Shown in pieces: positions 37,549 through 38,658 of a stretch of 64,000 bases of DNA. Both the position numbers and the translations under genes were made by a program. How positions within the stretch are numbered: the first letter of the stretch is position 1; every line of letters begins with the position of its first letter. The DNA lies in contig NW_026889803.1 in assembly GCF_033153115.1 (NCBI RefSeq), positions 26,846,001 to 26,910,000 of the forward strand, in the 5' to 3' direction. Origin of the DNA: Saccostrea echinata. Lineage: Eukaryota. The notes below the pieces were generated by a model, which saw only the letters and a program-made list of their open reading frames with translations, was not told the DNA's origin and ran no database searches.

Positions 37549-38658
37549 ATGGAGCAACCTCTTGATTTAAGCCAAAACAGTGACTCAAACAAACGAAGTG
37601 AATACAACATGGACGTCGAGGAACCAATTTGTCAATACCCAAATTGCTCCTGTCCCCTCAAACACATCACCACGCTGGAGAGCCCCAAACACAGACAAAG
37701 TCCCCCCAGGACGGAACATTACATGCCCCACTCCAGCGTCATGGAAGGTCCGTACGACGTACGACATGATGGAATTAACTATGATGGCGGTCTAGGAAAA
37801 AGGACATATATGGATGAATGTGCAAACACTAACTTTTACCATCCTAAAAGGCGAAAGATTGAGATGTACAAACAAAGAATCGCCAGATCCACTTCTGAGA
37901 ACAGCTTGTCGTCTTATGATGATCCCTATTCAACTTTAAACGTTGATTATCAAGGCTACGCTCCTAACGGAAATATACCGTACCCTAGTCAGGAGAAGAA
38001 TAGCGAATTATTCTGCAAAACCAGATCAATTAATACACCGACCACGATAGCAGGAGAAGAAATGTCCATGGAGGGAATGTATCACCCTACAACGAATGAT
38101 GACGAATACCGCGAGAGAAGCTACAGCACAAGTCACATTCAAAGATTACCAAAGAAGCGCCAGTATACAAGGCAGTACTCAAATAATTCTTCATCTCAGC
38201 AAATGTCTCCACGTCCGTCACAAAGCAGCGGTCACGTTACTCCACAATCTCAGCGTCACCCATATCAGCGTAGCAAGCCGGCGCCAAGCGCCACAGTCAC
38301 CAGCGAAAAGGAGGGGAAAGAGAACAACAAAGAGACAGCTAGCTCAATAAAAGCAGACATGATACGGGAAATAGACAATTGCCCGGATACAGACGATGTT
38401 GCGACATTCCGGAAACAACTGTTTGAAAATATCGTGCAGAGTGCCAAACAAGCGAGAGAGGCGAAGCTTAAGTGCAACAATACCGGTGGCGGTCTGGTGG
38501 CGTTAGATTACTTAATCTCCAAAAATGTGCTCCACAGTGAGGATAAACCATTCAAGGCTAGGAATAACCATATCCAACAGATCATCCGAGGCGAAAAGCC
38601 CGGAAAATTGTGTTTAATGGACATAGTCGAATTACAAGTCGAGATAGGATTAGCTTAG
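37549..38658 (+). CDS. Uncharacterised 369-aa, probably nuclear and largely disordered protein with a CtBP-binding PLDLS motif; single coding exon
   Basis: Long ORF, GC-rich relative to its flanks, Kozak-like ATCATGG; PLDLS at aa 4-8, PKRRK NLS-like motif, S/Q/P-rich middle, helical C-terminus. No recognised domain. Confidence 0.85.
   Translation: MEQPLDLSQNSDSNKRSEYNMDVEEPICQYPNCSCPLKHITTLESPKHRQSPPRTEHYMPHSSVMEGPYDVRHDGINYDGGLGKRTYMDECANTNFYHPKRRKIEMYKQRIARSTSENSLSSYDDPYSTLNVDYQGYAPNGNIPYPSQEKNSELFCKTRSINTPTTIAGEEMSMEGMYHPTTNDDEYRERSYSTSHIQRLPKKRQYTRQYSNNSSSQQMSPRPSQSSGHVTPQSQRHPYQRSKPAPSATVTSEKEGKENNKETASSIKADMIREIDNCPDTDDVATFRKQLFENIVQSAKQAREAKLKCNNTGGGLVALDYLISKNVLHSEDKPFKARNNHIQQIIRGEKPGKLCLMDIVELQVEIGLA

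What the first reader, a model, noticed from the sequence alone, without database searches (positions are those of the whole stretch)
37549..38658. Short-linear-motif architecture of the orphan protein
Seen: PLDLS at aa 4-8 (37558-37572), basic PKRRK and PKKR clusters, RERSYS and RSTS basophilic kinase/14-3-3-like sites. The last ~80 aa carry four hydrophobic boxes: FENIV, LDYLISKNV (38503), IQQII (38572) and LMDIVELQV (38614). Established: PXDLS is the canonical CtBP ligand; the CoRNR consensus is L/I-x-x-I/V-I, extended LxxI/HIxxxI/L. Inference: an adaptor bridging nuclear receptors or other transcription factors to CtBP without a DNA-binding domain.
Basis: partly seen in the sequence, partly recalled or inferred. 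Interest (0 to 1): 0.7.

Follow-up and report, generated by a model that had tools for sequence, protein, structure and literature searches.

The report
Mollusc-wide predicted CtBP corepressor adaptor
This oyster gene encodes an unnamed protein, shared by clams, snails and cuttlefish, that carries a classic docking tag for the gene-silencing protein CtBP and likely works as an adaptor that helps switch genes off, though its DNA-bound partner is unknown.

Summary
The 369-aa ORF is a spliced, single-copy oyster gene (95% identical to a Saccostrea cucullata protein). It is no orphan: 48 relatives span bivalves, gastropods and a cuttlefish, none with a known domain. An N-terminal CtBP motif is kept in 43 of 49 members; the six misses look truncated. 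The C-terminal 54 residues are the family's other fixed part. They behave as one conserved three-helix module with an invariant acidic face, not as four CoRNR boxes: FENIV is not conserved, a strict CoRNR pattern occurs in 0 of 49, and IQQII loses its pattern in snails. Best reading: a mostly disordered CtBP-recruiting corepressor adaptor, working like Hairless or RIP140 without detectable homology to either (0.6). Nuclear receptors as its target are possible but unshown (about 0.2). No binding was demonstrated.

The parts
31500..31593 (+). Non-coding exon 1 (leader). The 5' end is approximate: contigs begin at 31500, 31512 and 31520.
   Evidence: Contigs of runs X1, X2, X3; no ATG in the spliced leader
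31594..37479 (+). Intron, 5886 nt, GT..AG
   Evidence: Joint in one contig each of X1 (study P1) and X3 (study P2); run kind RNA is the tool's guess; splice sites read
37480..40541 (+). Exon 2: rest of the 5' UTR, the whole CDS and about 1.9 kb of 3' UTR
   Evidence: One 3159-nt contig of X1 covers exon 1 and this stretch
37549..38658 (+). CDS, 369 aa, mostly disordered; unnamed mollusc-wide family
   Evidence: in-frame stops upstream of the ATG in the leader
37558..37572 (+). PLDLS, canonical CtBP-binding motif (binding inferred)
   Evidence: ELM pattern as printed in a supplement of PMC9890238 matches 43 of 49 members, all within the first 110 aa
37630..37665 (+).
   Evidence: C28, C33, C35, H39 invariant in 24 of 24 rows; Cx4CxC in 34 of 49, including abalone, limpet, whelk and cuttlefish
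37837..37857 (+). YHPKRRK basic box, likely nuclear localisation signal
   Evidence: Identity 0.79; such P-K-K/R-R boxes occur in 32 of 49 rows and in none of the 17 gastropod-plus-cuttlefish rows
38143..38160 (+). RLPKKR basic box; second NLS or a PLKKR-like repression motif (unresolved)
   Evidence: Identity 0.94; not significant against the published PLKKR matrix
38350..38376 (+). KADMIREID, predicted amphipathic helix conserved in bivalves
   Evidence: Identity 0.74; helix in both models
38422..38436 (+).
   Evidence: Identity 0.21, equal to background 0.19
38494..38655 (+). C-terminal module, aa 316-369: three predicted helices (ALDYLIS / HIQQIIRG / LMDIVELQVEIGLA), always at the extreme C-terminus; the family's defining region
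   Evidence: D358, E361, L362, E365 invariant in 46 of 46 rows

Best explanation
This is a mollusc-wide, largely disordered protein with a canonical N-terminal PLDLS motif and a conserved 54-residue C-terminal module, and it likely works as a non-DNA-binding corepressor adaptor that brings CtBP to a DNA-bound transcription factor. Steps. (1) Shown: the gene is spliced and single-copy, and the motifs are conserved islands in a fast-evolving chain. (2) Inferred from established knowledge: PKRRK takes it into the nucleus, and PLDLS docks in CtBP's PxDLS cleft, which recruits CtBP's chromatin-modifying partners. (3) Inferred, weaker: the three C-terminal helices fold on binding and grip one conserved partner, with a broad hydrophobic face and an invariant acidic face (D358, E361, E365) that would suit a basic surface. 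The partner is not identified; a nuclear receptor takes about a third of the odds. (4) Inferred: other lineages added further corepressor tags in the linker (LWRPY in unionid and dreissenid clams, [FYW]RPF in snails and abalone), as Hairless combines CtBP and Groucho motifs.
For: CtBP motif: 43 of 49 members by the ELM pattern, all in the first 110 aa; 40 of 49 beat their own shuffles at p<=0.05 on the published fly PxDLS matrix; shuffles give 2.8 of 49 for a similar pattern. PxDLS domains pull down and depend on CtBP in fly cells (PMC9890238, passages). Related motifs occur in mollusc Su(H) (PMC6777938, passages). A CtBP gene is in this genome (E 4e-22 to CtBP2). No Pfam domain in the query or in the 26 relatives scanned (best hits all under their cut-offs). 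Disorder: 209 of 369 residues under pLDDT 50, pTM 0.21. The C-terminal 112 aa alone give confident helices but no compact fold, pTM 0.27. C-terminal conservation. WRPW-like motifs in 12 of 49 against 0.6 expected (related rows are not independent). The tree of the last 60 aa groups oysters (96/92) and gastropods plus cuttlefish (99/94), as vertical descent would. Splicing seen in two studies.
Against: No binding, localisation or repression was measured. In the fly screen most PxDLS-bearing tiles lay outside repressive domains (136 inside, 1303 outside), so a motif alone does not prove function. The oyster protein has only one clear corepressor motif and lacks the WRPW-like motif. Its basic boxes do not score on the PLKKR matrix (best 6.7 bits, p=0.17; 7 of 49 members at p<=0.05) or the HKKF matrix (1 of 49). 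The low pTM may reflect a shallow alignment (46 rows) rather than true lack of a fold. DNA binding by the Cys motif or by the C-terminal module is not excluded.
Confidence: 0.6

Rival explanations
1. The first reader's narrow version (a subset of the best explanation): the C-terminal helices are CoRNR-type boxes that bind nuclear-receptor ligand-binding domains, which would make this a miniature NCoR or RIP140.
For: HIQQII has the phi-x-x-phi-phi core; the strict core occurs at this box in 20 of 49, the looser one in 25 of 49. LMDIVELQV matches a relaxed extended consensus (P=0.017; 19 of 49). RIP140 is a precedent for a disordered NR-CtBP bridge. The genome has many NR genes (28 exon matches). 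Five weak half-site repeats lie in the 200 nt before exon 1, a count reached by 3 of 319 windows (post hoc, two mismatches each).
Against: Strict CoRNR pattern 0 of 49; LxxLL 2 of 49 against 4.8 expected. FENIV unconserved. Box 3 has H in only 24 of 46 rows and ends in Y in 12. The invariant positions of box 4 are acidic, whereas NCoR boxes carry basic residues there (recalled). Spacing and loop residues (P-F-K, N339, G348) are conserved as in one module.
Confidence: 0.2
2. The protein is a DNA- or chromatin-binding repressor in its own right, with the Cys motif or the C-terminal module (perhaps as a dimer) as an unrecognised binding domain.
For: Invariant Cys/His motif; most PxDLS proteins are DNA-binding factors; the C-terminal module is domain-sized and highly conserved.
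Against: The module's invariant face is acidic, which suits DNA poorly. The Cys motif is missing in 15 of 49 rows, including full-length clam members. No compact fold predicted. No Pfam DNA-binding domain.
Confidence: 0.14
3. It is a CtBP decoy or competitor that titrates CtBP away from repressors and so derepresses genes (precedents such as MCRIP1 and adenovirus E1A are recalled, not looked up).
For: One strong PLDLS and no DNA-binding domain; disordered chain with possible kinase sites.
Against: It leaves the strongest conservation, the C-terminal module, unexplained. Extra WRPW-like motifs in relatives fit recruitment better than titration.
Confidence: 0.12
4. The acidic C-terminal helices are an activation-type module that binds a coactivator (CBP/p300 or Mediator), making the protein a switch between activation and CtBP repression.
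For: Short amphipathic helices with invariant acidic residues and no independent fold resemble folding-on-binding activation domains (recalled).
Against: Activation domains are usually poorly conserved (general knowledge); here four positions are invariant in 46 of 46 rows. No sequence link to any known one.
Confidence: 0.09
5. The motifs are incidental and the protein has a non-transcriptional role.
For: No direct functional data exist here.
Against: PLDLS is kept at 0.95 identity against 0.19 background and across three classes.
Confidence: 0.05

Closest known systems
Hairless and S-CAP (arthropod Su(H) corepressor adaptors; PMC6777938)
   Same: Lineage-restricted, non-DNA-binding adaptor built from short motifs; CtBP motif; Groucho-type motifs in some relatives; one conserved docking region.
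   Different: No sequence link found. CtBP motif at the N-terminus, docking module at the C-terminus. No Su(H)-binding evidence, and mollusc Su(H) carries its own CtBP and Groucho motifs.
RIP140/NRIP1 and LCoR (nuclear-receptor corepressors that recruit CtBP)
   Same: Largely disordered, PxDLS-type CtBP motif, short amphipathic helices (RIP140; LCoR recalled).
   Different: They use LxxLL boxes, found here in 2 of 49. Much longer proteins; no homology detected.
NCoR/SMRT (CoRNR-box corepressors)
   Same: phi-x-x-phi-phi helices near the C-terminus of a disordered chain.
   Different: No SANT or deacetylase-activation domains, 369 aa against about 270 kDa, strict CoRNR pattern absent (0 of 49), invariant acidic face.
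Snail-type repression domains with PxDLS plus PLKKR (PMC9890238)
   Same: PxDLS together with basic P-K-K-R-like boxes; the oyster's best PLKKR-matrix window, SCPLKHI, echoes Snail's CPLKKRP.
   Different: No zinc fingers; matrix score not significant (p=0.17).

Membership tests
PxDLS-type CtBP ligands | Match to the CtBP PxDLS pattern in a disordered region | tested here: met
   PLDLS aa 4-8; ELM pattern from a supplement of PMC9890238 matches 43 of 49; the flank aa 8-23 is under pLDDT 50
PxDLS-type CtBP ligands | Motif conserved above its flanks | tested here: met
   0.95 against 0.19 background
PxDLS-type CtBP ligands | Physical binding to CtBP and CtBP-dependent repression | not testable with these tools
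   Needs pull-down and reporter assays; CtBP gene present
CoRNR-box corepressors (NCoR/SMRT) | Extended CoRNR motif L-x-x-I/H-I-x-x-x-I/L | tested here: not met
   Strict pattern (recalled) 0 of 49; box 4 fits only with V at two positions (19 of 49)
CoRNR-box corepressors (NCoR/SMRT) | phi-x-x-phi-phi amphipathic core | tested here: met
   IQQII and LMDIV lie in predicted helices; low information, P=0.145 for the core
CoRNR-box corepressors (NCoR/SMRT) | SANT and deacetylase-activation domains | tested here: not met
   No Pfam family at E<=1 for the query
CoRNR-box corepressors (NCoR/SMRT) | Binding to nuclear-receptor ligand-binding domains | not testable with these tools
   Needs experiment; see Tried and rejected for the one modelling job
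RIP140/LCoR-type NR corepressors | LxxLL NR boxes | tested here: not met
   None in the query (nearest LDYLI); 2 of 49, 4.8 expected
Hairless/S-CAP | Sequence homology, Su(H)-binding domain | tested here: inconclusive
   No named non-mollusc hit; no direct comparison with a Hairless sequence was run
PLKKR/HKKF Smrter-recruiting motifs | Significant score on the published matrices | tested here: not met
   Query p=0.17 (PLKKR) and 0.34 (HKKF); 7 of 49 and 1 of 49 members at p<=0.05
WRPW/WRPY Groucho ligands | [WFY][KR]P[WFY] motif (pattern recalled) | tested here: not met
   Absent from the oyster protein; present in 12 of 49 relatives, 4 of them LWRPY
Any known folded domain (C-terminal module) | Sequence or structure match | tested here: inconclusive
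   Models have low pTM, so fold searches cannot decide; see Tried and rejected

The most novel reading that the evidence does not exclude
Molluscs evolved their own Hairless/RIP140-like corepressor adaptor before bivalves, snails and cephalopods split. It keeps a constant CtBP tag and a new C-terminal docking module that grips nuclear receptors or another core developmental factor, while each lineage swapped further corepressor tags (WRPY, YRPF, PKKR, AxxLL) in the linker.
Probability: 0.25. Interest if true: 0.75.

Novelty: new variant of a known kind. Interest (0 to 1): 0.5.

Why it matters
Motif-only adaptors are invisible to domain annotation, and few lineage-specific ones are known (Hairless and S-CAP in arthropods; RIP140 in vertebrates, recalled). 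A phylum-wide mollusc example with an undescribed docking module would add a core regulator to mollusc development and physiology, and would give a clean case of corepressor-motif turnover around a fixed scaffold. It is directly testable with two short fragments. If the partner is a nuclear receptor it would bear on endocrine disruption in molluscs.

Tried and rejected
Complex prediction of an oyster RAR ligand-binding domain (P0058, aa 203-458, helix 12 included) with aa 312-369: verdict 'no answer', score 0.01 in both runs against a mark of 0.34; alignments were not used and controls were not folded. This is no evidence either way, and only one receptor was tried. Fold searches: Foldseek on the full model gave 0 matches at E<=0.001; VIA-align on the C-terminal model gave best Z 4.6, long-helix matches over residues 1-57, with the last module barely tested. 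PDB sequence searches gave best E 0.14 and 0.37. ESM Atlas gave no usable feature hit twice, which shows neither absence nor novelty. Metagenome scan for orthologous loci: 481 pattern matches, none confirmed, so promoter conservation could not be tested. Paralogue searches in the own genome found only this locus, plus one E=0.38 match not followed. PLKKR/Smrter reading of the basic boxes: tested and not significant; the fly Cic-RD1 tile holds HPKKRK but the authors did not call the motif there. eh1 reading: 8 of 49 against 3.2 expected, not in the query. Substitutions listed for run X6: 20 synonymous, 14 non-synonymous of 34 in the CDS, but the tool hid 81 further rows, so this was not used. 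Rows dropped before the counts: P0024 and P0031 (short fragments with odd substitutions) and all non-representative cluster members. Paper searches with no result: CoRNR+CtBP+mollusc, CoRNR box/extended helix/corepressor motif (55), six LOC identifiers (70), WRPY+FRPW+Groucho+internal+CtBP (74), WRPW+WRPY+Ripply+Groucho+TLE (86). Three look-ups of earlier scan findings gave nothing.

Full report
Observation. The window holds one 369-aa ORF at 37549-38658 on the + strand. Against 20,000 shuffles PxDLS has P=0.008 and the two P[KR]3 clusters P=0.002. The basophilic sites are ordinary (RxxS/T 5 seen, 3.8 expected).

The gene. Contigs of two studies (X1, X3; RNA is the tool's guess) join a short exon ending at 31593 to 37480 across a 5886-nt GT..AG intron, and one X1 contig runs on to 40541. 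The leader has no ATG and has in-frame stops, so the ATG at 37549 is the start. Three searches of the own genome found this locus only, apart from one E=0.38 match.

The family. The closest relative is a Saccostrea cucullata protein, 95% identical. Searches gave 50 cluster representatives; I dropped two short odd fragments (P0024, P0031) and counted the other 48 with the query (n=49). Named members come from oysters, pearl oyster, mussels, scallops (two paralogues), Potamilus, Sinanodonta, Dreissena, abalones, limpet, Gigantopelta, Nucella, Littorina, Batillaria, Pomacea and the cuttlefish Sepia pharaonis. Names are 'uncharacterized' or 'hypothetical', or low-complexity labels. Pfam gave nothing over cut-off for the query or the 26 relatives scanned. 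A tree of the last 60 aa (61 columns, many forks open) groups the oysters (96/92) and the gastropods with the cuttlefish (99/94).

What is conserved. In the 19 rows of A1 outside the oyster group, identity is 0.19 outside motifs and 0.95 at PLDLS, 0.75 at the Cys motif, 0.79 at YHPKRRK, 0.94 at RLPKKR, 0.74 at KADMIREID and 0.73 over aa 316-369; FENIV has 0.21. The ELM CtBP pattern matches 43 of 49, always within the first 110 aa. A similar pattern missed six rows, which look N-terminally incomplete (by inspection). P-K-K/R-R boxes occur in 32 of 49 and in none of the 17 gastropod-plus-cuttlefish rows. WRPW-like motifs occur in 12 of 49 against 0.6 expected: LWRPY in four clam rows, [FYW]RPF in seven snail and abalone rows, one FKPY; none in the oyster. 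That such motifs bind Groucho is recalled; my two paper searches for it returned nothing.

The C-terminal module. It is found in all members and always ends the chain. AlphaFold2 gives a disordered protein (mean pLDDT 51, pTM 0.21). For aa 258-369 with 46 rows it gives five helices and pTM 0.27, so no compact fold is predicted. In the last helix D358, E361, L362 and E365 are invariant in 46 of 46 rows and Q363 in 45. On a helical wheel the three acids share one face and the hydrophobic residues with Q363 the other. The middle helix is H-I-x-Q/E-I-I in many bivalves but E-I-x-x-I-Y in most gastropods (H 24, E 13 of 46; final I 20, L 12, Y 12). A strict CoRNR pattern (recalled from ELM) is in 0 of 49 and LxxLL in 2 of 49. 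The corepressor core is described as phi-x-x-phi-phi with needed flanks (PMC3315023, passages; PMC12863189, passages), which any amphipathic helix can meet. I read the region as one docking module, not as repeated CoRNR boxes.

Mechanism. Most likely (0.6) the protein enters the nucleus, docks on a DNA-bound factor through the C-terminal module, and recruits CtBP through PLDLS. The genome has a CtBP gene and many nuclear receptors. In fly cells PxDLS domains pull down and need CtBP, yet most motif-bearing tiles were not repressive (136 inside, 1303 outside; PMC9890238). The same paper describes PLKKR as a Smrter-recruiting motif that co-occurs with PxDLS; scored on its matrices, the oyster boxes are not significant (p=0.17), so an NLS is the safer reading. 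Nuclear receptors as target: about 0.2. Rivals: own DNA binding 0.14, CtBP decoy 0.12, activation module 0.09, unrelated role 0.05.

Comparison and novelty. It works like Hairless/S-CAP (PMC6777938, listing and passages) or RIP140, but it is not shown to be a member of either, nor of NCoR/SMRT. I found no paper on the family: CoRNR+CtBP+mollusc gave 0 and six LOC identifiers gave 0. The Pacific oyster identifier was not available to search, and supplements are not covered by that search. Papers seen: PMC9890238 abstract, passages, section 8, supplement files 1-12 searched and part 4 of file 12 read, files 13-24 not searched; PMC1693901 listing only; listings not read further except as named.

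Verdict. This is a real, unnamed, mollusc-wide family with a strong CtBP signature and an undescribed docking module; binding is untested. Interest 0.5; new variant of a known kind.

Noticed in passing
window 31512-31593 joined to 44450 onward (+): One 2269-nt contig of run X2 splices the same leader exon to an AG acceptor at 44449/44450, skipping the ORF exon. The promoter may serve two unrelated genes, or this is read-through.
   Followed up: partly
window 44450-44631 and 47409-48474 (+): A multi-exon gene without Pfam match in its two long frames, with repeated Tyr/His-rich units (FDGLYYLNHHPD...GIDEGR); possibly secreted or of bacterial-like origin (impression only).
   Followed up: no
window 31373-31450 (+): Five weak nuclear-receptor half-site repeats (DR0 twice, DR5, DR4, IR1) just before exon 1; 3 of 319 200-nt windows reach this count. 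Post hoc, two mismatches each.
   Followed up: partly
window 48982-50908 (-): LIM-homeobox gene exons (two LIM domains and a homeodomain; Lhx6/8-like by recall).
   Followed up: no
window 54649-62542 (+): Exons of a non-receptor tyrosine phosphatase with a C-terminal membrane tail (PTPN1/2-like by recall).
   Followed up: no
P0030, P0042, P0043, P0049, P0050, P0051, P0054: Seven snail-clade members share an AS-x-x-LL-x-L stretch resembling Sin3-binding AAxxL motifs; not tested.
   Followed up: no
P0012/P0019, P0014/P0020, P0015/P0016; P0030/P0046: Scallops and Nucella carry two paralogues of the family.
   Followed up: partly
L003, L016, L027: Three nuclear-receptor genes with the whole ligand-binding domain in one open frame (NR1J-like by recall).
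   Followed up: no
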